Of a stretch of 64,000 nucleotides of DNA, positions 1 to 38,674 are shown in pieces. The notes beneath the pieces are model-generated. The model had not been told where the DNA came from. It made no database searches and saw only the letters and a program-made list of their open reading frames with translations. Position 1 is the first letter of the stretch; every line of letters starts with the position of its first letter. The DNA is from a virus, in IMG/VR virus record IMGVR_UViG_3300034152_000478, positions 32,001 through 96,000 of that record; one strand, written 5' to 3'. The position numbers and the translations under genes are program-made.

Positions 1-1758
1 CATATACTGGTTGACGAATATGGGCGTCTAATAGTTACTCCTGACTTATCACAGAGTGGCTATGTTTACGCTTATGGTGATACTGGGTATCCTTTAGCAG
101 TTGATGGTGCTGGTCGATTGCTTATTAACCCATCTGGCTTCGAGGCTGCTCTGTCTGGAAACTATTACGCTAAAGACGAGCATCTTGTGCCAGAGTCTGC
201 TGACACATATAATCTTGGAGAGGCAGGCACGCGATTCAATACTCTGTTTGCTCAGTCTGGCAACTTTGCAGCGGGCATGTCAGTGGGCGGACAAGTCTTT
301 GAACATCCCACCCCACACCCAATAGAAGCTGACGCAGCATTATTCAGAAACCTACGCATTCCTGATTACCAGTCTATGGCAAGCAAGACGAGCGCTGAAT
401 ACAACGTAGCTCTTGGCTGGATGGCTCTACAAAAGATCACCAATCCACTGGAAAATGTTGGTGTTGGCTATAAAGCCTTGCAAGAAGTCACAGTCGGCAA
501 CTACAATATCGGCGTTGGCTCAAATGCTGGCAACACTATCGTCAGTGGCGACTATAATACCTGCATAGGTTGGAATGCCGATGTAGATTACCATGACCGT
601 CAAAAAGCTACCGCAATTGGCCATTATGCCACAGCTTCAGGTGATAACCAAATCCGTCTCGGTGATGAATTTTCTGAGGTTCATTGCGAGAATCTTATGG
701 TCCAGCAAAACCTGGTTGTCGCTTCAGGCCGCTTTAGAAATGTTATTCAAGTCGGTCATGGAGCAATGCGCATCTATGACAACGGCAGCATCGGTATCGG
801 TTATGACATTTTTAAGGAAGCAGATAACAACCAGAATGTCGCTATAGGCAATAATGCAATGATCAGAGCTTCTGGTCAATATTCTATAGCCATGGGTGTG
901 TCGGCTTCGCAGAATTTGCCTGCTGGTTCTAACAACAATGTAGCTTTAGGCACTTTTGCGTTACGCAACGATAATCACCATACAATTAGTGAGTCCGTAG
1001 GTATCGGTCCAAGCACATTTCGTCAGATACAAAGCAATGTCTCTTGGGGTATCGCTATTGGAGAAAGTGCTGCTCTTTTTGCAGGAGGCAATAGAAATAT
1101 CGCTATTGGACAAAAGTCTGGCGGCGGTGCTTCTGCTGGCACTACTGGTGATAATTGTATATGTATTGGTACCAATGCAGGTGGCCAAAGCTTGGCAAAT
1201 GAAACTATAGCGATTGGTCGTGAGGCACTGTATTTCCCACCTGATCAATTTAGCGTAAGGAATATAGCGATAGGCTACTACGCGCTACGACAACTCAAAC
1301 ATATGTCTACAAACTGTATAGGCATAGGCTCACAAGTAGGGCGTCTTGCAGGTGGATCTGGAATAATTTTGATTGGCGATAGTGCTGGATTTTGGCAATT
1401 TGGCAATTACAATACTATTATAGGCAATAATGCTTTGCCTACACTTGTACTGACTGGATCAAACAATACTCTTATAGGTGCCGACACAGACTTAAACGAT
1501 GTTTCAATAGAGTATTCAACCGCAATTGGTGCTGGTGCCGTAGCAAGTGGCTCTAATCAGGTTCGTCTTGGCGGCCAAACGGAAGAAGTTCACTGTGAAA
1601 GACTTCAAGTAGAGCGCGACTTCAGGCTTGGTGTTTATACCAGTGGAACTCGACCTTCTGCTGGCGTACCTGGCCGGTTGATATTCAACACAGATGACGG
1701 CAAGATCAACGTCGATGATGGTACCAATTGGACTTGGGCAGACGGCACAGTGATATAA
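1..1758 (+). CDS. Tail fibre/adhesin with YadA-head-like (xAIG/xGIG) repeats; 5'-truncated by the window edge
   Basis: Frame 1 is open from base 1 (HILVDEYGRLIVTPDLSQSGYVYAYGDTGYPLAVDGAGRLLINPSG) and matches the N-terminus of the next gene, so the true start is upstream of the window rather than at 118. Many ~14-aa NVAIG/NIAIG/TAIG repeats; a head-neck unit occurs twice (ATAIG..ASGDNQIRLG..EVHCE and STAIG..ASGSNQVRLG..EVHCE). Confidence 0.75.
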   Translation, partial: HILVDEYGRLIVTPDLSQSGYVYAYGDTGYPLAVDGAGRLLINPSGFEAALSGNYYAKDEHLVPESADTYNLGEAGTRFNTLFAQSGNFAAGMSVGGQVFEHPTPHPIEADAALFRNLRIPDYQSMASKTSAEYNVALGWMALQKITNPLENVGVGYKALQEVTVGNYNIGVGSNAGNTIVSGDYNTCIGWNADVDYHDRQKATAIGHYATASGDNQIRLGDEFSEVHCENLMVQQNLVVASGRFRNVIQVGHGAMRIYDNGSIGIGYDIFKEADNNQNVAIGNNAMIRASGQYSIAMGVSASQNLPAGSNNNVALGTFALRNDNHHTISESVGIGPSTFRQIQSNVSWGIAIGESAALFAGGNRNIAIGQKSGGGASAGTTGDNCICIGTNAGGQSLANETIAIGREALYFPPDQFSVRNIAIGYYALRQLKHMSTNCIGIGSQVGRLAGGSGIILIGDSAGFWQFGNYNTIIGNNALPTLVLTGSNNTLIGADTDLNDVSIEYSTAIGAGAVASGSNQVRLGGQTEEVHCERLQVERDFRLGVYTSGTRPSAGVPGRLIFNTDDGKINVDDGTNWTWADGTVI

Positions 1759-1770
1759 GGGATGTGAATA

Positions 1771-3753
1771 ATGGCATACCATATTTTTGATTATGGCCCA
1801 ACCGGCAGACACATCTTAGTAGATGATGATGGAAGACTCATTGTCAACGGAGATGCTTCGGAAAGTGGGCATATTTATGCATATGGAGACACAGGCTTTC
1901 CGCTGCTTGTAGATGGTGCTGGAAGATTGTTGATCAATCCTTCTGGTCTTGTTGGTTCCGGTGGTGGTGGAGCTGGCGCTGATGCACGATTGGATGCTGT
2001 ACCATGGACCAGTGGCGGCAGACTGGTAGATGGAGATTACGCCAATCGTTGGGTGTGGTTCAAAGGCAGTATGTTTGCTCCTCGACACAACTGGCTTGGG
2101 GCTACTGATGACGGTCTGCTAAAAATCACGCCAAGTGGCAACACATTCGCAACTAAGAAGATTGCTGCTCCCTCTGGCGGTTATCCATGGGTCGTAAAGG
2201 TTGTTGGCGAGAGATTATTTGTTGGCCATGGTGAAGGCAGCGATGGTTATATTTCATACTCTGATGATGGAGAAACTTTGAATTACGCCATTGACATGCC
2301 TGGGACTGCACAAGTTACTGCTCTTGGTGAATATGATGGCCAGTTGATTATTGGTCACAACAAAAATACTGGCACGGAACATCCTATCTATAAACTAAAT
2401 ATTGCAGAAGGTGATCCGCCAACATTTAGCATAGAAGAAGCATTTGACATATATGCTTATGCTGGCAATTGGGGATGGGATTATGGATTAGATGTTTGCG
2501 CCAATAGGGTTTTCACCTTTACGAACATCGGTTCTATTCTCAATGTGTATGACGGCCTACACAATCTTGGAGAATTTTGGCCTGATCCATATGATGCCAC
2601 TGAAACCCGACCAACCGCCCTTGCGATAGAATACAACGGTGAAATCTTCCTGCTTGGTACTAATATCTACAAGTATCAGGAAATGCCAACCGATACTGTC
2701 AACAATCCGCTGGTGCTTGCCAAAGAGACATACGAAGATACCAATGGAACTGTCAATGCATGCGCCGCAGTTTACAACAACAAACTGTGGATCATAGATA
2801 CCGCGCATAATGTATATACATACGACGGACACAATTGGACAGTAGACACCTCAATGAGTGGTGTGGCCAATGGCACGCGTGGCGGCCTTATTCAGGTAGA
2901 TGACAAGCTATATTACTTTACAAGTGACAAAGTCTGGTGGTCTATGCGTGATGCTCTATATGAGCCCAACAACAACGCAGGAGCCAACTCGAAATTCAGG
3001 ACTGCAGGGGTTCGTCACGTCAAAGGCTTGATGGATTATTGTGGCGCGAGATTTCCAACTCAAACAGAAGTTAGGAATGACGTTGGGTCTGGAGTTTTGT
3101 CGCCAGAATACACCTCAGTTCGTTTTATCACGCAATCAACACCTCTCGCCTCTGGCTTAAGTGAGCTTGATGGTCAAGTGTATGGCGAAAAATATGATCT
3201 AATCCCAGACACAACTGACACATACAATATTGGCAGTCAGATTTATGCTTTCAAAGGTCTGCACGCAGCTTCTGGTTTCTTCACGCAAGGTATACGTGTA
3301 GAGGCTTCTGGCGATCAGGCTGCTATCGAGATTCATTCAGATACTGGCACACGAGCCATTGAGATCATCAATGATGGCGACGCGATCTTGCTGGACTTGC
3401 AACAGGCTTCTGGCGCTGCTAACCCAGTTATTAAGATAGAGAATCCGGGCAGTGGTTACGACATTCAGGCTGATAACTGGAATGTAGATTACGACGGCAA
3501 TGCTGATTTTAACAACATTCCCAAGGTGTACCGGACGACTGTTGGTGAAGGCGATTGGAACTTGCCTTCTGGCGGCTACTACTGGGCAGATATAATTCAT
3601 AATCTCGGTCAGCAGTATGTAATAGCTCAGTTCTACGACTTAGACACCAACCAAAGTTCTGGTGTGTCAATTGCGCATGAGCATCGTGACGGTTCCACGC
3701 TTCGTGTCTTCACGACAACTTCAGGAGATATCGGCGCTGTGATTATGGGGTAA
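1771..3753 (+). CDS. Virion fibre/appendage protein with a central beta-propeller-like region
   Basis: 660-aa ORF. Shares an N-terminal module with the upstream gene, carries a 'LIPDTTDTYNIGS' fibre module, and has a C-terminal 'IIHNLG...AQFYD' motif typical of phage fibre tips. Confidence 0.6.
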   Translation: MAYHIFDYGPTGRHILVDDDGRLIVNGDASESGHIYAYGDTGFPLLVDGAGRLLINPSGLVGSGGGGAGADARLDAVPWTSGGRLVDGDYANRWVWFKGSMFAPRHNWLGATDDGLLKITPSGNTFATKKIAAPSGGYPWVVKVVGERLFVGHGEGSDGYISYSDDGETLNYAIDMPGTAQVTALGEYDGQLIIGHNKNTGTEHPIYKLNIAEGDPPTFSIEEAFDIYAYAGNWGWDYGLDVCANRVFTFTNIGSILNVYDGLHNLGEFWPDPYDATETRPTALAIEYNGEIFLLGTNIYKYQEMPTDTVNNPLVLAKETYEDTNGTVNACAAVYNNKLWIIDTAHNVYTYDGHNWTVDTSMSGVANGTRGGLIQVDDKLYYFTSDKVWWSMRDALYEPNNNAGANSKFRTAGVRHVKGLMDYCGARFPTQTEVRNDVGSGVLSPEYTSVRFITQSTPLASGLSELDGQVYGEKYDLIPDTTDTYNIGSQIYAFKGLHAASGFFTQGIRVEASGDQAAIEIHSDTGTRAIEIINDGDAILLDLQQASGAANPVIKIENPGSGYDIQADNWNVDYDGNADFNNIPKVYRTTVGEGDWNLPSGGYYWADIIHNLGQQYVIAQFYDLDTNQSSGVSIAHEHRDGSTLRVFTTTSGDIGAVIMG

Positions 3754-3757
3754 TGGA

Positions 3758-4114: not shown

Positions 4115-4116
4115 AC

Positions 4117-5326: not shown

Positions 5327-7225
5327 ATGCCGTACATTTGGAATGATTTCGAGATAGACTACACTAACCGGAGGCTTACACACAAAGCTTCGGGTACAGC
5401 GGTCTATACCGGGAATCAGCTTTACTCATGGTTGCAGGACACCTTTGATGAGCTGGTTCAGATGGACGATGCTGTACCAATGTCTGCTCAGACGCCCACT
5501 GAATACACGTTGATTAATGGCTGGTATATGGACGATGAAAGCTTTAAGTTCATCGATAATGCTGCTATTTCAACTATTGGCTGGAATGCTGGTACGTATG
5601 ATGATGGCGTTCGTATTTTTGAGCTGACAAGCACAGATTACGTCAATGCTACTTCTGGTGACATTGGCAGAGTAGTACTCGGTGGAACAACTGGAGAATC
5701 CGGCGTCCTACTTGCCTATGACAACTCACTAAGAAAGTGGTGGCTACGAGCCAATCCGAGCGGCACCTTCCAGACTCTCGAAGACATCAACGTAGTTGGT
5801 GGCGATGGTTCTGGAACTATGAAGTATGTATCTAAGACTGGTGAAAACCTATGGTCTAACATCTACACCTTGGGTACGTTGGAAGCTGGAACCAATATCT
5901 ACGTGACCCAAAGTGGTGTAAAGCTGGGCTCTTGGTGGCCAGCAGGCCATATTGATGTTCTTGTCAAAGTAAAAGAAGCCGACAAGTTCATTGATTATGG
6001 TAACTTGACCATTTTCGCTCGCCAATACACGAAGACCTACGACCACTTCCCAATCAGCGTAAGAAATGGTGGCCGTAACGCTGTCCCGTTGGCTACTGCA
6101 GCCGACCTAAACAACACCACAGCATCTGGTACTGTCGCAGGATACAACGATATCATCATCGCCCAGGTAAATGGTGAATTGGATTATACCGGCGCAGGCG
6201 GCTGGTTGCGCTGGGAAACAATTACTGGTGCTACATCCAATGCGACAGCTATCGTTTTGGAAGATGAAACGACCGGCAATGTTCTGACACTTGGCAACGT
6301 AAGTGGCGTGTGGCAGAATGGTGAGGTTATCAACGGTGGTACTGGTACAGGCAGCACTGCGAGTACACTGGATGTTGCTGTCACTTATCTCCATATGGAC
6401 TTGAATAACGGTAATGGCGACCGACCATACGATACCCACTGCAAGCTGCAGACACGTCCGTTGACTGAATGGTATGAGTGGATTAAGTTTATCACCAGAC
6501 GAGCTTCTGCGGAACGCTTTTACCAGAATGATGGTTCAGGTCTGTACTGGACAGATGGTGAGCAGTATATTGCTGCTCAGGCAGACTATACTCCGGTCAA
6601 GGCCAGTCCTCTGGGCGGATTTGCCGGTGGCACCTACTTCGGAGCGCAGGGAGTTTGGATCGAGGATTACGATTCAGATGACGCCAAGAATTTCCAGCTC
6701 ATCGATAGCTCCGGTGTTACGCAGACACCACCGAATGTTGTGGTTGTCAAGGTCACCAGTGTTGTGGCAGGTGACAGAGTCGCTGTTTTCGTCCTAACTG
6801 GTGACGGTGGCGAAATTGACAAGAATCAGTATCTTGCTGCTGCTGGCAATAACAATGGTGATCCAGACTTTGTGGTTCAGGGCACAATCACATCTGATAC
6901 GCCACAAGCCGGTTACCTGCGTATTGCGAACAGCTATGGTAGTGATGACTTGTATGAATATTCTTCTTGGACTGGTTCAACCTTCACATTGGATTCAATG
7001 ACGCTAAGTAGAAACTACAGTGCGGGTGAATCCGTCTATATTCCGATTATTGACGTTCAGGCGACTGGAACTGAGGTCTCTAACACGCTGATTTACAGCA
7101 CTGACATTTCTGTGTTGGTGCGTGTGCGTAGATATGGCATTTTGCCGTTCGAAGTTGAGTCCGACATCACAAGTGTTGGTTTGACTGTTGCGGCTATTAG
7201 AACGACAGATACGATTGTATCGTAA
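5327..7225 (+). CDS. Putative abundant virion structural protein
   Basis: 632 aa, acidic and G/T/S-rich, with a strong AGGAGG RBS and an upstream promoter-like motif. Confidence 0.6.
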   Translation: MPYIWNDFEIDYTNRRLTHKASGTAVYTGNQLYSWLQDTFDELVQMDDAVPMSAQTPTEYTLINGWYMDDESFKFIDNAAISTIGWNAGTYDDGVRIFELTSTDYVNATSGDIGRVVLGGTTGESGVLLAYDNSLRKWWLRANPSGTFQTLEDINVVGGDGSGTMKYVSKTGENLWSNIYTLGTLEAGTNIYVTQSGVKLGSWWPAGHIDVLVKVKEADKFIDYGNLTIFARQYTKTYDHFPISVRNGGRNAVPLATAADLNNTTASGTVAGYNDIIIAQVNGELDYTGAGGWLRWETITGATSNATAIVLEDETTGNVLTLGNVSGVWQNGEVINGGTGTGSTASTLDVAVTYLHMDLNNGNGDRPYDTHCKLQTRPLTEWYEWIKFITRRASAERFYQNDGSGLYWTDGEQYIAAQADYTPVKASPLGGFAGGTYFGAQGVWIEDYDSDDAKNFQLIDSSGVTQTPPNVVVVKVTSVVAGDRVAVFVLTGDGGEIDKNQYLAAAGNNNGDPDFVVQGTITSDTPQAGYLRIANSYGSDDLYEYSSWTGSTFTLDSMTLSRNYSAGESVYIPIIDVQATGTEVSNTLIYSTDISVLVRVRRYGILPFEVESDITSVGLTVAAIRTTDTIVS

Positions 7226-7341: not shown

Positions 7342-8112
7342 ATGGCACTGGATGTTAATTTCGACGATTATCTAATATATGTGCCATACCCAAGAACAGA
7401 GGTTGTGGCCCAGGATCTGATCGATGATATCAGATGGGCTGAAACTACAACTTCAGGTATAGCACATCCTAAAATCGCCGATGCGTCTGGTAAAGAAGGT
7501 TTGGCATCAGGTGTCGCGGTGGGCATTACTGTTGAGCTATATGATCCTTGGCAACTTAAGTTTTGGAATGGTAATTATGTAGCGACTATTCGAGATGGCA
7601 ACTTGGTCGGTGGGCTTAGCGGCATACCAGTTGCATACAGTGCTGGCGTACAGGTGCTTATGATTCAGTCCGCTGCCGCAACTATTGTGTCGCCCGAAGG
7701 TTGCAGCGCTTCGAACATTGCTCAAGAAGTTGATAATGTACTTTCTGCGAATCATGGCTCTGGTATATGGGAGGGCGATGGCCTATCCGAAAGTGGCATA
7801 GCACAAGCAGTCGATACCCAGTTGACAGCTACTAAGGGTGGGGCACCATGGACGCAGACACTTACTGAAAGCGGAATTGCCCATCGAGTTTGGCAGGAAG
7901 ATATGTCGTTGCACATGGCCTCTGGAACGGCCGGGGCTTTTGTCAATTTCATTTACAGTATAGAAGGTGGTCGCTGGAAGATCGACCAGACCACCAACCA
8001 GATGGTATTCTACAAAGAAGACAATGTAACCGAAATAGCAAGATTCGACCTGTTCGGAGCAGGCGGCTCTCCAGCGAGCGACGATGTTTATGAACGAAAA
8101 CGTGATTCATGA
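7342..8112 (+). CDS. Putative virion structural protein
   Basis: 256 aa with an internal repeat (IAQEVDNVLSANHG..W / ESGIAQAVDTQLTATKG..W / ESGIAHRVW). Confidence 0.55.
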   Translation: MALDVNFDDYLIYVPYPRTEVVAQDLIDDIRWAETTTSGIAHPKIADASGKEGLASGVAVGITVELYDPWQLKFWNGNYVATIRDGNLVGGLSGIPVAYSAGVQVLMIQSAAATIVSPEGCSASNIAQEVDNVLSANHGSGIWEGDGLSESGIAQAVDTQLTATKGGAPWTQTLTESGIAHRVWQEDMSLHMASGTAGAFVNFIYSIEGGRWKIDQTTNQMVFYKEDNVTEIARFDLFGAGGSPASDDVYERKRDS

Positions 8113-8474
8113 ATATAACGACACGTGGTTATGGAAAGAATAGCAATATTGTTACCAGAGGATATGGTCGTGCAATCCTCGAAGCGATTTATCGTGAGGT
8201 TATCAGACTCACAACCAGTTTCGGTACGGTACTTAAGCAGAATACAAGCTTCTCTATGGCAATGCGGCTGGCGACCGGAGTCGGAAGCAGACTTCGACTC
8301 GTATCCGGTATCGGAGGCATCATGGCACGCGTTAGACTGACGACTTCTTTTAATCAACGTCTAAAAACTTCCAATGTAGTTCAGTTGGGACGTTTGCTAT
8401 TGGATAACATTTTCAAGGTGGCAAGCAGAATCAAATTGTTCTGTAGTTTTGACCTAAGGAGACGAGATGGCTAA
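8109..8474 (+). CDS. Hypothetical basic protein with short repeats
   Basis: ATGA overlap with the upstream stop; NIxTRGYG twice and RLTTSF twice. Confidence 0.55.
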   Translation: MNITTRGYGKNSNIVTRGYGRAILEAIYREVIRLTTSFGTVLKQNTSFSMAMRLATGVGSRLRLVSGIGGIMARVRLTTSFNQRLKTSNVVQLGRLLLDNIFKVASRIKLFCSFDLRRRDG

Positions 8475-8754
8475 TAAACACTATGTCGGTGAAATTGGGA
8501 CTGAGATCCTGATTGAAGCTGATTCAGACATAAGTGCTGCCTCTGGTGTGTGGATGGAAGTAAAGAAACCAGATGGTATTACCATCGAGGAATGGTCTGC
8601 CACCATTGTTAGCGGCATCTACATACAACACATTGTGGAGGCTGGCGACTTTGATCAGGCAGGTGAATATTCAGTACAGCCATATATTGCGATGAGCGGC
8701 TGGGCTGGGTATGGCGAAACTGACACATTCAAAGTACATAAGAAGTTCTGCTAA
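8467..8754 (+). CDS. Small putative virion protein (Ig-like/BppU-N-like)
   Basis: 95 aa, 'VKKPDG...W.A...GDFDQAGEY.VQ' pattern seen in small phage structural proteins; GGAG RBS. Confidence 0.45.
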   Translation: MANKHYVGEIGTEILIEADSDISAASGVWMEVKKPDGITIEEWSATIVSGIYIQHIVEAGDFDQAGEYSVQPYIAMSGWAGYGETDTFKVHKKFC

Positions 8755-9850: not shown

Positions 9851-9851
9851 T

Positions 9852-22867: not shown

Positions 22868-22877
22868 GGAGTAGGCA

Positions 22878-28262: not shown

Positions 28263-28272
28263 GGAGTAAAGA

Positions 28273-30330: not shown

Positions 30331-32762
30331 TGAGTTGGTGGGACACAAGGTGGGCGGCCAGACACGCCATTCACACACGAACAGACGGTGACGCCTATAG
30401 CTCTGGTGTTCACTTTCTGCATGTAGATTGTGACTTGGATGGTCTTGTTTCAAACGGCCTGCTGCGTGCTGACTATAAAGACCTGCGTGTTGTCTATCAA
30501 AGTGGCACAACCGTTTCCATAAATTCTCCTTACTTTATAGCCTCTGGTCGCAGTCCGCATCGCATATTCTTTCCAGCCCACAATGAGATTCCAAGAGGGG
30601 TAGACATTGGTGGACATGGCTCAGGTTGGGGTTATTATCTGTATTTTGGATATGATGATGGCAACACATCTGGTCTACCTCCTGAGTATGTGAATCGTAA
30701 TTTCCCACAAGCTCCATATAGTGCAACTACCACCTGGTATAAGCCAACCGGAGCTACTTCTGGATATCGCGACAAATTCCTATACCGCCTCAATGATGAT
30801 CCATCTATAGGAAGTCCAAGTGGTTTTGAAGATGCTACAGGATTCACGAGCGGTCTGGCAGTTTACGACACTGGGAACACAAGCGGGGTGATTAAGGGGC
30901 AACCAGGGAGATTGGATCTTTCTACTGAAATTGAACGATCACAACGCTGCTCAATTCTTGCGATTGACGGCAATGATGGCACCACAGTGCCAAGTGGTGA
31001 TTGGTGTATTGATTTTTGGGTTTATCCATATGCCACTGCTGGTACCAGCTACTGGTTTGTTAAGAAGGATAATACAAATAGTACCACTACCTTTGCCTGG
31101 CCGATAAAAGCCCGAATGATTTATGATGCTACAGATGATGGATTCAATAGTTATTGCACCCAAAAAAGAACGGCATTTTCTGACACCTATAATCAATACG
31201 ACAAGACATCTACTGCTGGTATCGCTGAGAATGAATGGTCTCATTTGCGATTCTATCTTGGTAAGAAATACTACAATGCATGGTCTTGTTTGTTTTGCTA
31301 TCATAACGGCCAACGAAAAGGTATAACAGGCAATTGTGGACCGCCACCTGAACCTTATAAAACACAAATGGAAAGCGGCCATTGTTGTATTGGGGGGCCA
31401 GTTTATGGATTCTCTGCCGAAATTGATGGTAGACTTGAGCAATTCCGATATTCAACTTATCCATGGTTTGCACAAGAAAATTTCAATGAACAAAACAGCA
31501 ATAGCAGATTCTGTCCTCCAGATTGGGTCGACAACGAATATACCACCTACTTGAGTAACATCCAATTGTACGAGCCGACTGCTTCTGGTTCATTCGGTGG
31601 ATGTACATCGGCCACTACCGCATTCGTGACAGTCAGCGGCATCTTTGGCGGCTACATGTTTGGCGGAGTTCTGGGCTATGGAGAATTTGGTGGTTTTGCT
31701 TTTGCACGCCTTGCGATTACCTCTTACTTCGGAGGCTATACTCAGGTAGCCCGTGGAACTGTCAGAGCAGATTTTGGTGGCTTTGTTTTGGGTTTTGCTC
31801 CTGGTGGTGGCACTTGTGTTTTCGGTGCGGTGACCAGCGGAATAGGCACTTTTGTTGATTTTGGCTTGGGAGGATTCGCAAACGCACAAGAGCGCACATG
31901 GAAAAGTGATACTATGGGCTCTAACACTCTCTCATATGCTGGTGATACGCAAGAAGCATTCCGTGGATATGTGATAGGAACATGGACCAGCCCAGATACA
32001 ATCGTAGAGAACGGTTCGCGTGGTCTGGTGAAATCTTTGGCAGATACGCAGCATCGTCAGAAGTTTACCATCGACGGCGAAGTCTCACTGTATGCAACAG
32101 AGGAAGCTGAATTTGATGCTGCTGTTGACATTATCAAGAGAGAGCCCGTGGGGTTTGACTCGTTGCTGATGGTGAGTCGAACGCGCAAAAACCCGTTCAT
32201 ACAAGTCATAGACACCAATATTGCTGGCACTGGCCCATGGACCGTAACTATTACAGCTTCTGGTTATGCTTTTGATAAGAATAACGTGGCTATTGACAAT
32301 GCCATTCACAATGCTTCTGTCGACTGGACCGATGGAGATTATGAGTCTCTGCCGAATACGACAGCCAGCGGCGAAATCTTCAAGTTCACACACGTTTATA
32401 CAGCCAGTGGGCTTTATAAGCCCGTAGTGTCTGTGCAAGACAAGTTCGGCCGCCATGGAGCCGATGATACGACAGTTAATCTGGCCTCCGGACTTAGTCT
32501 TCCGTATATTAAGTTGTTGGCTACACCTCGGCTGGGCACAACACCACCACCGTTCTATGCGGACATCGGAGTAGTGCTTTCTGGCGTACAGAATCCTTAC
32601 AATCTATTCTGGAACTACGGTAACGGAATTCGCTTCTATAATAACGCCACAAGCGGAACTGCCCAGTATGCTTTACCAGGTGATTATATTCCATATGTAA
32701 GAATCAAGGACGCACGAAAAATCTTCGTAGTGGATACACTGCGGGTTGGTTTCAACCAATAG
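30330..32762 (+). CDS. Virion appendage: DUF2341-like N-terminus, LamG/ConA-like lectin domain, FGG repeats, two PKD-like domains
   Basis: WWDTRW...ADYKDLRVV; WCIDFWVYP...WSHLRF...IDGRLEQFRYS; periodic FGG; HVYTASGLYKP and WNYGNG...YALPGDYIP. Confidence 0.6.
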   Translation: MSWWDTRWAARHAIHTRTDGDAYSSGVHFLHVDCDLDGLVSNGLLRADYKDLRVVYQSGTTVSINSPYFIASGRSPHRIFFPAHNEIPRGVDIGGHGSGWGYYLYFGYDDGNTSGLPPEYVNRNFPQAPYSATTTWYKPTGATSGYRDKFLYRLNDDPSIGSPSGFEDATGFTSGLAVYDTGNTSGVIKGQPGRLDLSTEIERSQRCSILAIDGNDGTTVPSGDWCIDFWVYPYATAGTSYWFVKKDNTNSTTTFAWPIKARMIYDATDDGFNSYCTQKRTAFSDTYNQYDKTSTAGIAENEWSHLRFYLGKKYYNAWSCLFCYHNGQRKGITGNCGPPPEPYKTQMESGHCCIGGPVYGFSAEIDGRLEQFRYSTYPWFAQENFNEQNSNSRFCPPDWVDNEYTTYLSNIQLYEPTASGSFGGCTSATTAFVTVSGIFGGYMFGGVLGYGEFGGFAFARLAITSYFGGYTQVARGTVRADFGGFVLGFAPGGGTCVFGAVTSGIGTFVDFGLGGFANAQERTWKSDTMGSNTLSYAGDTQEAFRGYVIGTWTSPDTIVENGSRGLVKSLADTQHRQKFTIDGEVSLYATEEAEFDAAVDIIKREPVGFDSLLMVSRTRKNPFIQVIDTNIAGTGPWTVTITASGYAFDKNNVAIDNAIHNASVDWTDGDYESLPNTTASGEIFKFTHVYTASGLYKPVVSVQDKFGRHGADDTTVNLASGLSLPYIKLLATPRLGTTPPPFYADIGVVLSGVQNPYNLFWNYGNGIRFYNNATSGTAQYALPGDYIPYVRIKDARKIFVVDTLRVGFNQ

Positions 32763-32776: not shown

Positions 32777-35700
32777 ATGAGCCATCCATATATTTATGTT
32801 AGCGGCGTGGGTGAGCCACTGATTTTCAATGATAGCGCCAGGATAGATGCTGACTTGGGGCTTCCTGATAGCTTTGGTCAGGTTTGGATAGCGAGCATCA
32901 ATGCCAGCTTTGGCTTTAATAGCACGCCACACACTGTGGAAATGGAGCTTGTTAGCAGAGAGCGCATTACTGTCACAGAAGACCTTATTGAGAATGATTG
33001 TTCTATACAGATTGGTGAGCTGTATTTCATGGGCAAAATAGCCCATATTGACAGCAGTGTGGGAACCAACGGCTTTGTAACTCGCATGCGCTGCGAAGAC
33101 AACAGGGTCAGGCTGCTTAATGAATACCTGGTACATACTGAACCTCTACTGGAGAGCAATATTGATAAATTACTCGTGGTACCACAGGTGCTGGGTACTG
33201 CGGGAACCCTTTACCAGATCAATTCTCCTTTGTATATGATGTCTCGATACGGGGCAACTTATGCTGAGTTGTACCAGGCAATCAACACACTTGGTATCGT
33301 TACGCTACCTCCTCCTGGAGCTATAGCCAACAAACTTGGAAACCAAAAGGCATACCGTTGGGCCTTTAATTTGACGCCGCTATTTGATGCTATATTGCAA
33401 GTATTCGATGACACTGGATATGATGTCTATTTCTACAACAATGAAATTAAACTGATTGATCGCAGTAAATCAATCGAGGTCGATAGCACCTTTTTCGATG
33501 GTCAACACAAAATAGATTACCGTAGCGGCTATGACAACACGATGCGGCCAGACTCCTACTTCATCCTTGGAGCCAGGAAAGAAGGTGGTGTAGGCACAGT
33601 CTCTGGCGTTGTACAATACCAAAATCTTGTGAGTCTTGGCGCAACCTCACTGTCTCCTGCTTGGAATGATATTACTGTTAGCTATCATGATTCAGAAGGT
33701 CGACTACAAACCTACTATCCTACAGATGATGAACTAAAGATGGCACTAAAAAGCATTGAGCACTGGGTATACTTCAAGCGACAGGAGCTGGAAGCAGCCG
33801 GTGACCGAGTGTCAGAAGGCTGGATGGAGTCGAGAATAGATCCTGACGCCTTTGGCCTCCAGGGTAGCTTGTTGGAGTCGGCAATTTCATTCGGTGGTGG
33901 TCGAGACGATGTGTATCGCGTAATCCACAATAGACGATCAGAGAAATTCAATTGGGTGTGTGCTTGGTACGAGGCAGTTGCGCGTCACGCCAGGACATAT
34001 TATGGTAAATTATACTCATGTAGACCAGGCGAAAACTTCTTGCGAAAATGTGAAGTGATTGATGATACCTGGGTGCATGATAATATCGACAATCAGGTGG
34101 TGCCAGATGCGTATTCTCCATTCTATAAAGATGGCAGAATGAGCGCTTTTGCAAAATTCAGCAATACACAAGTTAAAGGGTTTGGTCCGGATGGAACAGC
34201 AACGCCGCTTGCTTTTACTGAATGGAACGAAGATGATAATTTCATCTACATGCCCGTGACTGTTACAATACACTCTCCTACAAGCGAGAAGGATACTCTG
34301 TTCCCTGGTATTACAGAAACACGCATGTTTGTTTCTCTGCCAGAGATTATAGTGGCTGACATTGAACCACATCCTCTGCTGAATAATCTGGGCACAATGG
34401 GCTTTGTCAATCAGTATGATCTGAGCAATCTTGCTACCAGCGGTAGCATTGAGGATCGATTCCAGTTGTATCTATCCAGCAAAGATATGAATGATCCACG
34501 ATTAACCATGGTGCCACTGAGTGGTGTTGACAATTTCTTTATTCCGGTACGTTACAACATTCGCTATGGGGACGATGGTAGTGCTTTGGCTGGAAGCACC
34601 AGTGGTCTTTATGGGGCAGAAATCGATGAGAAATACGCTCCATGGACCAAAACGAATCCTGCCAACCCTGAATCAGACATGTTGGTAAAAGCTCAAAAGA
34701 TAGTAGGGGATGATACAGTAGATGATTTCATAGAGGCGACCATAGTGGGTCTGCCAGAAACCAACTTCTTTGCAAACTTCTCAGATGAGAATTATGCACC
34801 GATTCATCCTTTTACCTCTATCAATGTAACAATCGGCTCAAATGGACTAACAACTCGCTATTCAGCTAAGTCTCAGATCGTTGAATTGGTAAGAGCAAAT
34901 GCTATTGAGTACAGCCGCTTCCAGTCTCGACTTAGCAGAATCCAGCATTGGGCCAACTTTTCTAAGCTTTCTTCTGACTTCAATCTGAATATTGATCTCA
35001 GCCGTGGTGGTATTTTATATGTGAGTCGTCCACCTGCTGGGAAAACGATCACTTCTACAATCGAATCTCGAAAGCCGGAAGAAGAAGTGGTCGAAGTTGA
35101 ACAGAGAAACTTTATCAAAACTGTAGAGATTATAGACGTAAAGCAGGCATCTGTAGCTGATCCTAATGGTGGCACCTCCAATATCACCATGGAGTTTTAC
35201 GCCGGAAAGGATGATAAGGGCTCTTACTGGCCAGCAAATTGGCAGGAAGTAGAGGACACACAATCTGCAGACCCAGGAGAAGAGGAAGAGGATAAGAGAA
35301 ATATTAGGGTTGTATTGGCTGGATTTGGAGTAAGTAAGACGCGAACCAAAATGCGTAAGCGAGGCTTTGCTCCATGCGTGGATGGCTACCTAAGAAAAGG
35401 TATGACTGCCCAATATCACCATGAAGATATCGAGGGTACTATCTACACCTATTTTACAGGCGGGATTGACCTCGCAGATACCAAATATGTGCGCATGATT
35501 ACTGAGGTGCAGAAAGACGAAACCAGTGGGCGCTGGTATGCGGATCTGGAAACTGTATCGCAGGTGCCAAATGTAGATCCTTTCAGGTTCAAGAAGGTGC
35601 CATTTCTCAATAACGATACTGTGGCTGGTCAAAGTTATGCAACTGGTGACAAGGTTGTCGTAGTGTGCAGTAAAGAATTCAAGGGTGGTTCAGCGAACGC

Positions 35701-36115
35701 CACAGCGGACAGTGCGAATGTGGCCAATGAAAATCAGGTATTTCCAACATGGGAAAAAGGCATTGTAAGACCAGAAGGTGATTTCCTGGATTCTGATGGC
35801 CAGCCTAACAATCTCATGTTTATAGATAATCCAAACATGATAGCGGCACTTGCAGTATATGTCGTAGAGCCACCTGATCCAATTACTGGTGTAGGAGGTA
35901 TTGTCGCCGTGGTGAACAATCCATCTAATCAATTCGGAAAGCTGCAAGGTAATGATTCCGAAGAGGGTGAAGACTTAACATTTGTTGGTGTGTCACCCGA
36001 TGTTATTCTTGAGGGTGATTATGGCATCCTCACAAAAGGTCTGAGTAATGAGTGGATTGTGATTATGCAGAAGCCTCTATTCAGCCCATATAATGAATTC
36101 AATCCGAGTGCATAA
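32777..36115 (+). CDS. Putative tail-tip hub/central fibre protein
   Basis: 1112 aa; N-terminal hub-like beta pattern (SINASFGFNSTPHTVEMELV...FMGKI...CEDNR) at the end of the tail cluster. Confidence 0.5.
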   Translation: MSHPYIYVSGVGEPLIFNDSARIDADLGLPDSFGQVWIASINASFGFNSTPHTVEMELVSRERITVTEDLIENDCSIQIGELYFMGKIAHIDSSVGTNGFVTRMRCEDNRVRLLNEYLVHTEPLLESNIDKLLVVPQVLGTAGTLYQINSPLYMMSRYGATYAELYQAINTLGIVTLPPPGAIANKLGNQKAYRWAFNLTPLFDAILQVFDDTGYDVYFYNNEIKLIDRSKSIEVDSTFFDGQHKIDYRSGYDNTMRPDSYFILGARKEGGVGTVSGVVQYQNLVSLGATSLSPAWNDITVSYHDSEGRLQTYYPTDDELKMALKSIEHWVYFKRQELEAAGDRVSEGWMESRIDPDAFGLQGSLLESAISFGGGRDDVYRVIHNRRSEKFNWVCAWYEAVARHARTYYGKLYSCRPGENFLRKCEVIDDTWVHDNIDNQVVPDAYSPFYKDGRMSAFAKFSNTQVKGFGPDGTATPLAFTEWNEDDNFIYMPVTVTIHSPTSEKDTLFPGITETRMFVSLPEIIVADIEPHPLLNNLGTMGFVNQYDLSNLATSGSIEDRFQLYLSSKDMNDPRLTMVPLSGVDNFFIPVRYNIRYGDDGSALAGSTSGLYGAEIDEKYAPWTKTNPANPESDMLVKAQKIVGDDTVDDFIEATIVGLPETNFFANFSDENYAPIHPFTSINVTIGSNGLTTRYSAKSQIVELVRANAIEYSRFQSRLSRIQHWANFSKLSSDFNLNIDLSRGGILYVSRPPAGKTITSTIESRKPEEEVVEVEQRNFIKTVEIIDVKQASVADPNGGTSNITMEFYAGKDDKGSYWPANWQEVEDTQSADPGEEEEDKRNIRVVLAGFGVSKTRTKMRKRGFAPCVDGYLRKGMTAQYHHEDIEGTIYTYFTGGIDLADTKYVRMITEVQKDETSGRWYADLETVSQVPNVDPFRFKKVPFLNNDTVAGQSYATGDKVVVVCSKEFKGGSANATADSANVANENQVFPTWEKGIVRPEGDFLDSDGQPNNLMFIDNPNMIAALAVYVVEPPDPITGVGGIVAVVNNPSNQFGKLQGNDSEEGEDLTFVGVSPDVILEGDYGILTKGLSNEWIVIMQKPLFSPYNEFNPSA

Positions 36116-36117
36116 TA

Positions 36118-38010
36118 ATGGCTAACGAAGAAAAACTCATAGAAGAATTAGAGGCAGCCCGACGCGCTGCTGGTGGAGGCCAAACAGAGCGTTTGAAATT
36201 GCGCTATGCCTATGGTCAGCCTGACCCATTTGTTCTTCCTTTGAATAACTTCGGTGATAAACACTTTGTGGTGCCATTTGATGGCCGCTATATCGAAGAG
36301 GTTATGTTCTACATCAACCTATACAGGCAAAATATGCTTGGTTGGTTGCCGCGATCTTTCAATCTTTATGATGCACATGGTAATCCTACAGAACAACATA
36401 TTCCCAAGGCTTCCTACATCACAAACTCCAGGTTGAATAACGTTGGCTCAATTGTCAATTTTGTACAATATGTAGAAGACCTCAAGGAAGCTGTCGAAGA
36501 AATCATTGTTGAGCCAGATACACTGGCGGCACATTTTGGTCGTTGCTTCAATAGACCACACTTTGATGATCCATATGTATTCATAAGTGAGGGATTACAT
36601 GAACGACGCCCAGTCGAAGTAGAAGCACGACTGACACACCGTGGTGAAGTGTTGCCGTTCTACAATTTCCCTGATACGATCAGCGAAGAGACACTGTATA
36701 ATGCGTTTAACAAGTTCCAATATTACACGCCTTCGCCAAGTCATCCGGCGCGGCAGATTTTGATTGATGCCTTCAAGACAGCCAGCAGACAGTTGCCAAC
36801 TATTCCGATGTTCCAACGTATGGAGAATGGCGAGTGGCCCATAACACGTAATGAATTACTCACAATGCTCGGCCTGGCCATCTACGGCAAACATCCTGAT
36901 CCCATCTATCGACCAGCAGAGCGTGAAGGATACACCAGCGAAACAAATAGATACACTATATCTGATCATAAGCGAATATTCTTGGCGGCCATCTCATTCG
37001 TGATGCAAGCGTTGCGCTTCCAGCCGCCTTTGATAGAAAGATTTCGCCCAGGCCATCCTCAAGTTGATACAAAATGGTGGACAAGTCGCTGGTATTGGAG
37101 AGTTGGTGAAATAGCATACGAGAAAGAAGACTGGTTTATCGAAGAGTTCCCACGCCAGGGCGTCAACAAGATGTGGCGCTTTGAAAATGGCTATTATCAT
37201 ATGATCGGACATGGCTCTGCGCCGGGACAAGGTTTCACCATTGACATGCCATTAGATCGATATGGTAAATCAACTCGCCAGAGAAATTATGATGATGGCT
37301 TAATCGGGCTGGGGCCTGGGCTACTTGGTATCGTGCTGGAGGAAGCTCGCGGAGTAGTGTCACACTTTGAAGAAACACTGCTGACATGGTTTGCTGGCAC
37401 TGCTTTTACTGACATCTATGGCCCGAATGCTCACCGGGAAAGCCAACCGGACAAAAACCACTACTTTTTCCATAAGTACAGTAATATGTTAATAGGTGGT
37501 TCTGCCGGTGTCTATCCTGGCGCTGGAGCCTCAGAAGGGCAAGGTGTTAGCGTGGTAATCCGCATCGATGATGGCAATAATGAGCCGTTCAGTATTTATG
37601 CTTATCATAATGCAGATAGTCAGCCGGGGATTATTTCGCTGCAAGGACTACCAGTTAATATCAATCTATACAATGAATTCCGTGCTCTTGGCCCGCAATA
37701 CGTCAATGCAGCAGACAATTGGCTGAAGATGGTCGGCATTAGGTTGGCAGCACATAGAAACAAAACTGTGACTACACCAATAACAAGTGCCTGGTGTGGT
37801 GGTTTTTACAAAGACTGTGGGCGTTTTTGCGAGAAGCTGCCCGCATCATGTTGCGATGTATATACGCCGTTTCATCATCCTTGTGGGCCAGCATATGATT
37901 TTTGGCGAAGTGGTGGCGGAATTTGGAGACCAGCGCCATCGGTCAATATACCGTACATCGCTATTATCGATGAGAAAATACACAAACCGGAAGACTTCTT
38001 AGACGATTAG
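36118..38010 (+). CDS. Hypothetical (probable tail-associated) protein with a Cys-rich C-terminus
   Basis: 630 aa; WCGGFYKDCGRFCEKLPASCCDVYTPFHHPC. Confidence 0.5.
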   Translation: MANEEKLIEELEAARRAAGGGQTERLKLRYAYGQPDPFVLPLNNFGDKHFVVPFDGRYIEEVMFYINLYRQNMLGWLPRSFNLYDAHGNPTEQHIPKASYITNSRLNNVGSIVNFVQYVEDLKEAVEEIIVEPDTLAAHFGRCFNRPHFDDPYVFISEGLHERRPVEVEARLTHRGEVLPFYNFPDTISEETLYNAFNKFQYYTPSPSHPARQILIDAFKTASRQLPTIPMFQRMENGEWPITRNELLTMLGLAIYGKHPDPIYRPAEREGYTSETNRYTISDHKRIFLAAISFVMQALRFQPPLIERFRPGHPQVDTKWWTSRWYWRVGEIAYEKEDWFIEEFPRQGVNKMWRFENGYYHMIGHGSAPGQGFTIDMPLDRYGKSTRQRNYDDGLIGLGPGLLGIVLEEARGVVSHFEETLLTWFAGTAFTDIYGPNAHRESQPDKNHYFFHKYSNMLIGGSAGVYPGAGASEGQGVSVVIRIDDGNNEPFSIYAYHNADSQPGIISLQGLPVNINLYNEFRALGPQYVNAADNWLKMVGIRLAAHRNKTVTTPITSAWCGGFYKDCGRFCEKLPASCCDVYTPFHHPCGPAYDFWRSGGGIWRPAPSVNIPYIAIIDEKIHKPEDFLDD

Positions 38011-38026
38011 ACGTATCTATAAGTAG
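38011..38026 (+). promoter_or_regulatory. Candidate late-promoter motif (copy 3)
   Basis: ACGTATCTATAAGTAG, running into an AGGAGG RBS. Confidence 0.55.
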
Positions 38027-38035
38027 GAGGATATC

Positions 38036-38674
38036 ATGGCTGTAAGTGGTATTGTGACATTCCATGCTTGCCACAATAGTGGCATCATGATAAGCCAGCT
38101 TGGCTCAGGAACCTACGATCATATGGGTTTCTTTGGGGCTAATGGTGCTTCTGATGCCATTATCGTAGGTAGTTATAACGACACCACTCTGGTGGTAGAT
38201 GCTTCAGGAAATCCACGCACTCCTGTGGCTAACAGTGTCTTGGTCAACAACAAGTATATCCACAGTAGCGGTGTTTCTATATCAGGCTCACCGACTCTGA
38301 TTATCAACAATATCCAAGATGAAGTGCACCTGTCTTCTGGCACGCTTCTGATTTGGTTCCGAACGACTAACAGCGCAAAGGTTAATACCTACAATGCCAA
38401 ACTGTTTGTCTATGATAATACAGCCGATATATATACAGCACCTACAGATGTTGAAGTGGAAGGATATGAGATCAATGCTTCTGGAGTAGGTGTTGGTGGT
38501 TGGTACTCAATGAATGGGTTTGCGGCGGGTGTTAATTTTGTAGATCACGCCCCATCAACAAATTATGCTTTCAATGACACAGAACATAGATGGTATGCTG
38601 GAATTTCACTCAAGCCAATCAGCGTTGGTTTCCTCGATGATTTTGACTTTGTATTCCGATTCCAGTTTGCATAA
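38036..38674 (+). CDS. Putative abundant virion (decoration-like) protein
   Basis: 212-aa beta-rich protein with its own promoter motif, an AGGAGG RBS and a downstream terminator; 8 Ser-Gly. Confidence 0.5.
   Translation: MAVSGIVTFHACHNSGIMISQLGSGTYDHMGFFGANGASDAIIVGSYNDTTLVVDASGNPRTPVANSVLVNNKYIHSSGVSISGSPTLIINNIQDEVHLSSGTLLIWFRTTNSAKVNTYNAKLFVYDNTADIYTAPTDVEVEGYEINASGVGVGGWYSMNGFAAGVNFVDHAPSTNYAFNDTEHRWYAGISLKPISVGFLDDFDFVFRFQFA

What the first reader, a model, noticed from the sequence alone, without database searches (positions are those of the whole stretch)
1..38674. Ser-Gly enrichment is confined to predicted outer virion proteins and is selected at the protein level
Hand counts of SG over total Ser: 1771-3753 16/36; 28273-28959 9/17; 27573-28262 7/18; 38036-38674 8/21; 8467-8754 3/7. 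Raw SG counts: 11 in 308 aa (29404), 20 in 810 aa (30330), 15 in 757 aa (23447), 12 in 617 aa (25720), 8 in 256 aa (7342), 10 in 632 aa (5327). Gly is only roughly a tenth of residues, so this is several-fold above chance. Internal controls: the tail-lumen tape measure has 4 SG in 2220 aa, DnaE 3 in 1118 aa, and each chaperone-like protein 1. The serines use TCT, TCA, AGT and AGC, so this is not a DNA repeat. Counts are manual and may be off by one or two.
Basis: seen in the sequence. Interest (0 to 1): 0.85.

Follow-up and report, generated by a model that had tools for sequence, protein, structure and literature searches.

The report
Conserved Ser-Gly motif in phage tail proteins
About fifteen tail and fibre proteins of an uncultured 151-kb phage lineage carry three times too many Ser-Gly pairs, and these serines are the best-conserved residues in the proteins. 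They sit next to a conserved block of phage sugar-transfer genes, so they may be sugar attachment sites, but no attached sugar has been shown.

Summary
In the + strand virion block (12,767 aa), SG occurs 176 times against 78 expected (z 12.5). The next dipeptide reaches z 4. GS, TG and NG are not enriched, and the rest of the genome is at or below expectation.

- **Protein level:** the excess is in the reading frame only and uses all six Ser codons.
- **Not generic beta-turn usage:** 49 virion proteins of lambda, T5, T4 and SPP1 give O/E 1.19. So do 114 out-of-clade homologues of one of the fibres.
- **Motif:** [P/A]-S-G-[V/I/L]-[aromatic], in loops beside beta-strands, and strictly Ser (PSG 30 against PTG+PNG+PDG 6).
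- **Conservation:** SG serines are conserved 68% against 31% for other serines. Six SG pairs supply 11 of the 25 invariant columns of a 23-member family.
- **Spread:** at least 11 families with no detected similarity to each other, in every relative found, down to 29% identity.

"Outer virion proteins only" is not established. The capsid protein, a beta-helix protein and two large tail-module proteins lack the excess.

A conserved neighbouring cluster (UDP-xylose synthase, GT2+GT9 and multi-domain glycosyltransferases) makes a Ser-specific O-glycosylation sequon the best explanation (about 0.4). A purely structural turn motif is the main rival (about 0.3). Other first-stage notes on this genome proposed the same glycosylation link.

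The parts
1..1758 (+). SG-rich fibre or tail-spike-like protein (598 aa; starts 38 nt before the window). SG 12 against 5.6 expected.
   Evidence: Out-of-clade homologues have SG O/E 1.19 and mostly Thr at the aligned sites.
1771..3753 (+). SG-rich 660-aa protein. It shares only a 47-aa N-terminal module with the previous ORF. SG 16 of 36 Ser, against 4.5 expected.
5327..7225 (+). SG-rich 632-aa protein of unknown role. SG 10 against 4.7 expected.
7342..8112 (+). SG-rich 256-aa protein. SG 8 against 2.1 expected.
8467..8754 (+). SG-rich 95-aa protein. SG 3 of 7 Ser.
   Evidence: Weak on its own (p 0.02).
11481..12701 (+). SG-rich 406-aa protein. By gene position it is a candidate major tail protein. 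SG 7 against 2.6 expected.
   Evidence: phrog_985, virion structural protein. The role is inferred from gene order only.
21554..23438 (+). Two SG-rich proteins directly after the tape measure: 437 aa (SG 8 against 2.9) and 186 aa (SG 5 against 1.6).
   Evidence: Orthologues in L006, L008 and L018 are also enriched.
23447..27573 (+). Paralogous SG-rich proteins of 757 aa (SG 15 against 6.1) and 617 aa (SG 12 against 4.2). Both are all-beta. The 757-aa model contains propeller-like domains.
   Evidence: Six SG pairs supply 11 of the 25 invariant columns of the 757-aa family.
27573..28959 (+). Paralogous SG-rich proteins of 229 aa (SG 7 of 18 Ser) and 228 aa (SG 9 of 17 Ser).
29404..32762 (+). 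SG-rich proteins of 308 aa (SG 11 against 2.9) and 810 aa (SG 20 against 6.9). They share a C-terminal domain.
38036..38674 (+). SG-rich 212-aa protein, the last gene of the tail block. SG 8 of 21 Ser.
14892..21554 (+). Tape measure protein (2220 aa). Internal negative control: SG 4 against 7.1 expected.
32777..38010 (+). Two large tail-module proteins without SG excess: 1112 aa (SG 7 against 6.4) and 630 aa (SG 1 against 2.3). The same holds in all relatives.
   Evidence: The atlas lead for the 1112-aa protein (DUF5048, baseplate-hub-like) is weak.
39119..40102 (-). UDP-glucuronate decarboxylase (UDP-xylose synthase), next to the tail block.
   Evidence: 245 bits to human UXS1, against 109 bits for the next enzyme class. 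Orthologues sit next to the tail block in relatives.
41519..42520 (-). GT1-like (GT-B) glycosyltransferase, 333 aa.
   Evidence: PF13524, 2e-11. Conserved in relatives.
42980..44722 (-). GT2+GT9 fusion glycosyltransferase, 580 aa. The family is restricted to this clade.
45644..49291 (-). 1215-aa multi-domain glycosyltransferase: GT4-like, DUF4214, GT9 and GT2.
   Evidence: Orthologues are in L019 and L020.

Best explanation
A whole clade of uncultured siphovirus-like phages of about 130-170 kb has fixed Ser before Gly in the tight turns of many tail, baseplate and fibre proteins that have no detected similarity to each other. The motif is [P/A]-S-G-[V/I/L]-[aromatic].

The most likely reason is that these serines are acceptor sites (a sequon) for Ser-specific O-glycosylation. 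The enzymes would be the phage's own soluble glycosyltransferases, acting in the cytoplasm. They are encoded right beside the tail block: a GT1-like enzyme, a GT2+GT9 fusion and a 1215-aa multi-domain glycosyltransferase. Phage enzymes could supply and tailor the sugars: UDP-xylose synthase, a UDP-sugar dehydrogenase, sugar O-methyltransferases and APS kinase.

- **Shown:** the enrichment, its protein-level and Ser-specific nature, its strong conservation, its restriction to the clade, and its conserved position next to the sugar genes.
- **Inferred:** that the serines are modified, by which enzyme, and with which sugar.
For: 1. **A common cause is needed.** The excess recurs in at least 11 families with no detected similarity (z 13.2). 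It is absent from the other 30,596 aa of the genome.
2. **It is not a property of the fold.** Control phage virion proteins have O/E 1.19. So do 114 out-of-clade homologues of fibre 1-1758. These keep the Gly but use T>S>N>D before it.
3. **It is Ser-specific.** PSG 30 against PTG 4, PNG 0 and PDG 2. ASG 35 against 10 for the T/N/D forms. Against controls, Fisher p 8e-12.
4. **SG serines are the most conserved residue class.** Mean conservation is 0.74, against 0.20 for other Ser, 0.36 for aromatics and 0.50 for Pro. Across orthologues it is 68% against 31%.
5. **All 15 SG sites of the 757-aa model lie in loops or turns beside beta-strands** (pLDDT 72.5).
6. **The sugar genes abut the tail block.** UXS, the GT1-like enzyme, GT2+GT9 and the multi-domain glycosyltransferase do so here and in relatives at 37-46% GT identity.
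7. **The glycosyltransferases probably act on a cytoplasmic acceptor.** The genome is rated complete and has no Wzy_C/PglL ligase, no initiating phosphoglycosyl transferase and no ThyA-type hydroxymethylase. This argues against en-bloc transfer, exported polysaccharide and hydroxymethyl-pyrimidine DNA.
8. **There are precedents.** The GT9-fold enzyme TibC modifies only Ser, for example Ser313 in an N-S-G-G turn of TibA (PMC4358343). XT1 needs Gly at +1 (PMC13038410).
Against: - No direct evidence of any modification exists.
- The co-occurrence of glycosyltransferases and SG rests on one clade, so it counts as one evolutionary event.
- The glycosyltransferase genes lie among DNA methyltransferase, SSB and DnaE genes, so another target is possible.
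- The GT9 domains resemble WaaF (7.5e-13) and gave no TibC match.
- An unrelated phage with UXS and UGDH (QdP_Psa3) shows no SG excess: 32 against 24 expected.
- The candidate capsid protein is not enriched.
- Near-invariance of the sites, and their replacement by N, D, E or A when lost, also fit a purely structural turn residue.
- Non-target proteins do not avoid [P/A]SG: 14 against 11.8 expected.
Confidence: 0.4

Rival explanations
1. This is a purely structural "SG hairpin" motif. Ser caps a tight beta-turn before an alpha-L Gly (type I turn plus G1 bulge; P-S-G fits positions i+1 to i+3). The lineage uses it throughout its all-beta tail proteins, and nothing is attached.
For: - SG sites lie in loops and turns between strands.
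- Hydrophobic and aromatic residues flank them.
- The sites are nearly invariant.
- Lost serines are replaced by the turn formers N, D, E, A and G rather than T.
- Short recurrent hairpin motifs such as the Asp-box exist in propeller proteins (my own knowledge). The 757-aa model is propeller-like.
Against: - It does not explain why only this clade uses Ser, across at least 11 families with no detected similarity.
- The same fibre fold elsewhere uses T, S, N or D, with SG O/E 1.19.
- Generic phage beta proteins show PSG about equal to PTG, PNG and PDG.
- PDG and PNG are usually at least as good for this turn, yet occur 2 and 0 times against 30 for PSG.
Confidence: 0.3
2. The serines serve another Ser-directed process: a different modification (phosphorylation, sulfation through the phage APS kinase, acylation, cross-linking) or recognition by a clade-specific assembly factor.
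For: - The same evidence for a trans-acting, Ser-specific cause applies.
- The phage encodes a strong APS kinase (2e-59) and several methyltransferases.
Against: - No protein kinase was seen among the ORFs I scanned.
- A six-frame search of the genome found no canonical sulfotransferase.
- The glycosyltransferase cluster is far larger, and it lies adjacent and is conserved.
Confidence: 0.15
3. This is a chemical-stability adaptation. SG replaces the deamidation-prone and isomerisation-prone NG and DG turns in virion proteins that must last in the environment.
For: - PNG 0, PDG 2, ANG 2 and ADG 2 in the SG-rich set.
- NG is depleted in the block (z -2.2).
Against: - DG overall is not depleted: 77 against 68 expected.
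- Thr would serve equally well, yet TG is depleted and T is replaced by S.
- The capsid and other virion proteins are not affected.
- Other phages face the same chemistry without an SG excess.
Confidence: 0.07
4. The excess is chance, amino-acid composition, a DNA motif, a tandem repeat or one shared paralogous domain.
For: Three small paralogue groups exist.
Against: - z is 12.5 against composition-preserving shuffles.
- The excess is in frame 0 only.
- Spacing is irregular.
- z is 13.2 with one representative per family.
Confidence: 0.01

Closest known systems
Bacterial autotransporter heptosyltransferases (TibC, AAH) acting on TibA and AIDA-I
   Same: - A GT9-fold cytoplasmic enzyme hyperglycosylates only serines, not threonines, in turns of an all-beta passenger domain.
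- One mapped site is N-S-G-G.
- The enzyme gene lies next to the substrate gene (PMC4358343).
- Here, GT9 domains lie next to Ser-Gly-rich all-beta proteins.
   Different: - The phage GT9 domains match WaaF, not TibC, by sequence.
- They are fused to GT2 and other domains.
- The substrates would be many virion proteins, not one adhesin.
- The motif has P or A at -1.
- No modification has been shown.
Eukaryotic proteoglycan initiation (xylosyltransferase XT1/XT2 on Ser-Gly)
   Same: A Ser-Gly core in which Gly at +1 is poorly replaceable (PMC13038410). A UDP-xylose supply through a UDP-sugar dehydrogenase and UXS. PAPS-related chemistry through APS kinase.
   Different: - There is no acidic patch. 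Glu is depleted at -1, -2 and -5.
- There is no GT14, GT61 or canonical sulfotransferase domain in the genome.
- Hydrophobic strand flanks replace a disordered acidic context.
Mycobacteriophage virion O-glycosylation (capsid and tail tube; my own knowledge, Freeman et al. 2023; see also PMC11256854)
   Same: Phage-encoded glycosyltransferases near structural genes are thought to decorate virion proteins.
   Different: - There, the sites are Ser/Thr-rich C-terminal extensions of the capsid and tube proteins.
- Here the capsid protein is not enriched.
- Here the sites are dispersed, conserved turns in many tail proteins.
- The enzymes are unrelated multi-domain glycosyltransferases.
Chlorovirus PBCV-1 capsid glycosylation
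   Same: Virus-encoded multi-domain glycosyltransferases plus methyltransferases build xylose-containing, O-methylated glycans on virion protein at atypical sequons, independently of host machinery (PMC9614988).
   Different: That system is N-linked (NTXT), on the capsid protein of a eukaryotic giant virus. The sequon and the enzymes are unrelated.
Asp-box (S-x-D-x-G-x-T-W) beta-hairpin motif of sialidase-type propellers (my own knowledge)
   Same: A short, conserved hairpin motif that recurs in all-beta and propeller proteins. It is the model for the structural rival.
   Different: The sequence differs: S and G are four residues apart and an Asp is required. The Asp-box is widespread across life, not confined to one clade.

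Membership tests
Proteoglycan-type O-xylosylation (XT1/XT2 sequon) | Ser-Gly acceptor core | tested here: met
   176 SG in the block, z 12.5.
Proteoglycan-type O-xylosylation (XT1/XT2 sequon) | Acidic residues flanking the acceptor Ser | tested here: not met
   The context logo shows Glu depleted at -5, -2 and -1. P or A is at -1 and V, I, L or an aromatic at +2 and +3.
Proteoglycan-type O-xylosylation (XT1/XT2 sequon) | GT14 xylosyltransferase | tested here: not met
   No PF02485 or PF04577 match in six frames of the complete genome.
Proteoglycan-type O-xylosylation (XT1/XT2 sequon) | UDP-xylose supply (UGDH plus UXS) | tested here: met
   UXS scores 245 bits to human UXS1. The nucleotide-sugar dehydrogenase scores 1.2e-36 but is below the curated cut-off and short.
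BAHT (TibC/AAH) protein heptosylation | GT9-fold glycosyltransferase encoded next to its substrate gene | tested here: met
   PF01075 matches at 1.4e-21 and 4.6e-11 in two genes beside the tail block.
BAHT (TibC/AAH) protein heptosylation | Sequence membership of the TibC/AAH family (iron-finger, beta-barrel N-domain) | tested here: not met
   The PDB sequence search finds WaaF (7.5e-13) and WaaC, and no TibC chain, at E<=0.01.
BAHT (TibC/AAH) protein heptosylation | Ser-only acceptors in beta-structure turns | tested here: inconclusive
   The motif is Ser-specific and lies in turns. Modification itself was not tested.
Phage virion O-glycosylation (mycobacteriophage type) | Ser/Thr-rich C-terminal tails on the capsid and tail tube proteins | tested here: not met
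   The candidate capsid protein has 1 SG against 1.2 expected. The sites are dispersed internal turns.
Any protein glycosylation system | Glycan covalently attached to the motif serine | not testable with these tools
   This needs mass spectrometry or cryo-EM of virions or of co-expressed proteins.
Asp-box structural hairpin | S-x-D-x-G-x-T-W consensus | tested here: not met
   The logo shows adjacent S-G with no conserved Asp, Thr or Trp register.

The most novel reading that the evidence does not exclude
The phage clade runs its own proteoglycan-like hyperglycosylation system. More than 150 conserved Ser-Gly sequons, on at least 11 tail and fibre protein families with no detected similarity to each other, are initiated by a new clade-specific glycosyltransferase (for example the GT2+GT9 fusion). 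They are then extended with xylose-containing, O-methylated and possibly sulfated glycans. The result would be a sugar-coated tail with a bare receptor-binding tip.
Probability: 0.15. Interest if true: 0.9.

Novelty: new variant of a known kind. Interest (0 to 1): 0.72.

Why it matters
If the serines are glycosylated, this would be the first defined sequon for phage virion glycosylation. It would also be the most extensive case known, covering many tail proteins and using a self-contained phage sugar toolkit. That bears on phage stability, recognition by hosts and immune systems, and glyco-engineering, since a short sequon placed in beta-turns would be a useful tool.

If the serines are not modified, the finding is still of interest. 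It would be a clade-specific, near-invariant turn motif that overrides the usual T, N and D alternatives, with no explanation so far.

Either way, the signal is a simple sequence statistic. It could be scanned across viral metagenomes to find modified virions.

Tried and rejected
- **Generic beta-fibre explanation:** rejected with lambda, T5, T4 and SPP1 virion proteins (O/E 1.19) and 114 out-of-clade fibre homologues (O/E 1.19).
- **DNA-motif explanation:** rejected, because the excess is in frame 0 only.
- **Single shared domain or tandem repeat:** rejected by BLAST, irregular spacing and all-against-all hhalign. The profiles were shallow, so very remote homology cannot be excluded.
- **Independent replicates:**
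  - Aphanizomenon "phage" Yong-DA, which carries a UXS, is a plasmid-like exopolysaccharide cluster without virion genes.
  - Pseudomonas phage QdP_Psa3 has UXS and UGDH but no SG excess.
- **Motif avoidance in non-target proteins:** none seen.
- **Structure of the 228-aa protein:** the AlphaFold model was too poor to use (pLDDT 48).
- **Fold search of the 757-aa model:** only generic propeller, sialidase and tail-tubular-B-like matches, at TM-scores up to 0.25.
- **Atlas look-ups:** a weak baseplate-hub lead for the 1112-aa protein, and nothing for the 630-aa protein.
- **Family and relative searches:**
  - PHROGs and Pfam are nearly blank for the SG-rich proteins.
  - No cultured relatives were found.
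  - A viral-contig scan with the GT2+GT9 protein alone found nothing.
- **Sequencing runs:** none was listed, and no RNA holder was listed.
- **Complex prediction:** not run, because an enzyme-substrate pair is a poor use of that test.
- **Host:** not identified. There are no tRNAs in the window.

Full report
**1. The observation**

I shuffled residues within each protein to get expected values.
- The + strand block (window 1-38,674; 29 ORFs; 12,767 aa) has 176 SG against 78.1 expected (z 12.5).
- SG is the top outlier among all 400 dipeptides. The next has z 4.0.
- GS is 89 against 78. TG and NG are mildly depleted.
- The 25 minus-strand genes have 20 SG against 24.4 expected.

The window is part of a single 150,882-bp viral contig rated 100% complete. 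Across its 200 ORFs the excess is confined to genome 31,962-70,674.

Fifteen ORFs carry the excess: 151 SG against 50.9 expected. The other 14 ORFs of the block have 25 against 26.4.

**2. The selection acts on the protein**

- All six Ser codons and all four Gly codons are used.
- Ser-Gly-coding hexamers occur at 7.8 per kb in frame 0 of the enriched genes, against 1.2 per kb in the non-enriched genes.
- Frames +1 and +2 and the reverse strand do not differ between the two gene sets.

**3. The motif**

The context is [P/A]-S-G-[V/I/L/Y]-[W/Y/F].
- Pro is 4.6-fold and Ala 2.3-fold enriched at -1.
- Glu is depleted upstream.
- Spacing is irregular, so this is not a repeat.
- The motif is sharply Ser-specific:

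| Set | PSG | PTG | PNG | PDG | ASG | ATG | ANG | ADG |
|---|---|---|---|---|---|---|---|---|
| 15 SG-rich proteins (6,418 aa) | 30 | 4 | 0 | 2 | 35 | 6 | 2 | 2 |
| Control phage virion proteins (26,201 aa) | 10 | 8 | 7 | 8 | 21 | 21 | 16 | 12 |

- The difference is significant (Fisher p 8e-12).
- [P/A]SG density is 10.1 per 1000 aa in the SG-rich set, 1.2 in the controls and 0.44 in the rest of this genome.

**4. It is not generic beta-turn usage**

- Forty-nine annotated virion proteins of lambda, T5, T4 and SPP1 were tested, including long fibres, baseplate proteins and tubes.
  - Their SG O/E is 1.19.
  - None reaches p<0.01.
  - The highest SG/Ser ratio is 0.21.
- Only one SG-rich protein has relatives outside the clade: fibre 1-1758, with 747 homologues, many carrying Peptidase_S74 domains.
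  - In 114 out-of-clade homologues, SG O/E is 1.19 (99th percentile 1.98).
  - In-clade homologues reach 1.5-2.2. The window's own protein (2.14) and its two closest relatives are at 2.0-2.2.
  - At positions aligned to our SG, the distant homologues keep Gly but mostly have Thr, then Ser, Asn or Asp.
- So the fold wants a small polar residue before Gly, and this clade has specifically fixed Ser there.

**5. Conservation and spread**

- Relatives were found only in metagenomes, on contigs of 48-166 kb (L005, L006/L017, L008, L018, L019, L020).
- All show the same enriched orthologues. All show the same exceptions: the tape measure, a protein of about 150 aa, one of about 1100 aa and one of about 600 aa.
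- The representatives of the 757-aa family that match over most of their length (29-44% identity) have SG O/E 2.0-3.7. Five short or partial matches have 1.0-2.4.
- SG serines are conserved 209/308, against 195/626 for other serines (p 2e-26).
- In the 23-member 757-aa family, 11 of the 25 invariant columns lie in six SG motifs.
- SG serines are the most conserved residue class there:

| Residue class | Mean conservation |
|---|---|
| Ser in SG | 0.74 |
| Pro | 0.50 |
| Other Gly | 0.41 |
| Aromatic | 0.36 |
| Other Ser | 0.20 |

- SGs not shared with a given relative are still in excess (O/E 1.5-1.9).
- When an SG serine is lost, it is replaced mostly by N, D, E or A, and rarely by T.

**6. 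It is not one inherited domain**

BLAST and profile-profile comparison find only three small paralogue groups: {22878, 27573, 28273}, {23447, 25720} and {29404, C-terminus of 30330}. There are no links between the groups.

With one representative per family, the excess is 116 against 40.1 (z 13.2).

**7. Structure**

- The 757-aa model is usable (pLDDT 72.5, pTM 0.80).
- All 15 of its SG sites fall in loops or two-residue turns bordering beta-strands.
- Fold searches give only generic propeller, sialidase and tail-tubular-B-like similarity.
- The 228-aa model was too poor to use.

**8. Which proteins are enriched**

| Enriched | Not enriched |
|---|---|
| Two fibre-like proteins after the capsid gene | Portal |
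| Proteins of 632, 256 and 95 aa | Candidate capsid protein (weak phrog_2522 match) |
| A candidate tail tube protein | Adaptor and neck-like ORFs |
| Most post-tape-measure proteins | A 348-aa beta-helix-like protein |
| | Chaperones |
| | Tape measure |
| | The 1112-aa and 630-aa proteins |

The "outer proteins" label therefore does not fit cleanly, and most roles are unknown.

**9. Neighbouring sugar genes**

Earlier first-stage notes on this genome pointed to sugar genes, and I tested this lead. Convergent with the end of the tail block lie:
- a UDP-glucuronate decarboxylase (245 bits to human UXS1, against 109 bits for the next enzyme class);
- a GT1-like enzyme;
- a GT2+GT9 fusion;
- a 1215-aa protein with GT4-like, DUF4214, GT9 and GT2 domains.

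Further along the genome are:
- an APS kinase (2e-59);
- a nucleotide-sugar dehydrogenase;
- three CmcI-like sugar O-methyltransferases;
- an FkbM methyltransferase.

The same gene set abuts the tail block in the divergent relatives. The GT2+GT9 fusion family itself is restricted to the clade (37-77% identity, then a drop to 24%).

The genome lacks:
- GT14, GT61 and canonical sulfotransferase domains;
- a Wzy_C/PglL-type ligase;
- an initiating phosphoglycosyl transferase;
- a ThyA-type hydroxymethylase.

This argues for direct transfer to a cytoplasmic acceptor. It argues against exported polysaccharide and against glycosylated hydroxymethyl-pyrimidine DNA.

By sequence the GT9 domains are WaaF-like, not TibC-like. 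The only PDB match of the large enzyme's GT2 domain is GmaR at 27 bits. GmaR is, to my knowledge, a flagellin O-GlcNAc transferase. This is a lead only.

**10. Interpretation**

A clade-specific, Ser-specific selective force acts on turns of many virion proteins with no detected similarity to each other. That implies a trans-acting factor.

The adjacent, co-conserved glycosylation toolkit makes a Ser O-glycosylation sequon the best single explanation (about 0.4). Its precedents are:
- TibC, which is Ser-only and has a mapped N-S-G-G site (PMC4358343);
- XT1, which needs Gly at +1 (PMC13038410);
- chlorovirus self-encoded virion glycans (PMC9614988).

The case is inferential, for five reasons:
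- co-occurrence rests on one clade;
- an unrelated phage with UXS and UGDH shows no SG excess;
- non-target proteins do not avoid the motif;
- the capsid protein is not enriched;
- the extreme conservation and the N/D replacements fit a structural turn residue equally well (about 0.3).

Other Ser-directed processes (about 0.15) and avoidance of labile NG and DG turns (about 0.07) remain possible. Chance, composition and DNA-level causes are excluded.

**11. Verdict**

Protein-level selection is supported. The "outer virion proteins only" claim is not established.

The feature is a new, clade-wide motif. It is most likely a new variant of virion or adhesin Ser-glycosylation, and it is testable by co-expression and mass spectrometry.

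Noticed in passing
genome 121386-121964 (-) = L002:1386-1964: A 192-aa predicted lipoprotein (signal peptide plus an L-T-G-C lipobox) is the only clear SG outlier outside the virion block: 6 SG of 20 Ser against 1.7 expected, starting C-P-S-G. It could be chance among 200 ORFs, or another target of the same process.
   Followed up: partly
window 42980-44722 (-): The GT2+GT9 fusion glycosyltransferase forms a family restricted to this clade: 26 proteins at 37-77% identity, then a drop to 24%. It has no match in 50,697 cultured phage records.
   Followed up: partly
window 1-1758 and 1771-3753 (+): Two adjacent fibre-like proteins share a 47-aa N-terminal module at 77% identity but are otherwise unrelated. 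This pattern would fit alternative fibres docking on one adaptor.
   Followed up: no
window 44704-45183 (-): An HNH plus AP2-domain endonuclease ORF sits between the two large glycosyltransferase genes. It is probably a homing endonuclease insertion.
   Followed up: no
L001:4745-7357 (genome 18745-21357): The ribonucleotide reductase large subunit (870 aa) has a C-terminal extension with a weak LAGLIDADG endonuclease match (residues 686-813).
   Followed up: no
L003:9531-10265 (genome 105531-106265): The APS kinase is fused to an N-terminal DUF2061 predicted membrane segment. It follows a small HxGH-type nucleotidyltransferase ORF. No canonical sulfotransferase is present in the genome.
   Followed up: partly
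window 28273-28959 and 28823-29419: The public gene call for the 228-aa protein starts 30 codons late (198 aa). The conserved N-terminal MAG..QSGIY in all homologues supports the longer form. The overlapping 198-aa ORF probably starts near residue 58, because its orthologues are 148-164 aa.
   Followed up: partly
PV055685 (L022) 2691-11540: Pseudomonas phage QdP_Psa3 carries UXS-like and UDP-glucose dehydrogenase genes next to a thymidylate-synthase homologue and a helicase. Its tail proteins show no SG excess, so UDP-xylose may serve a different purpose there.
   Followed up: partly
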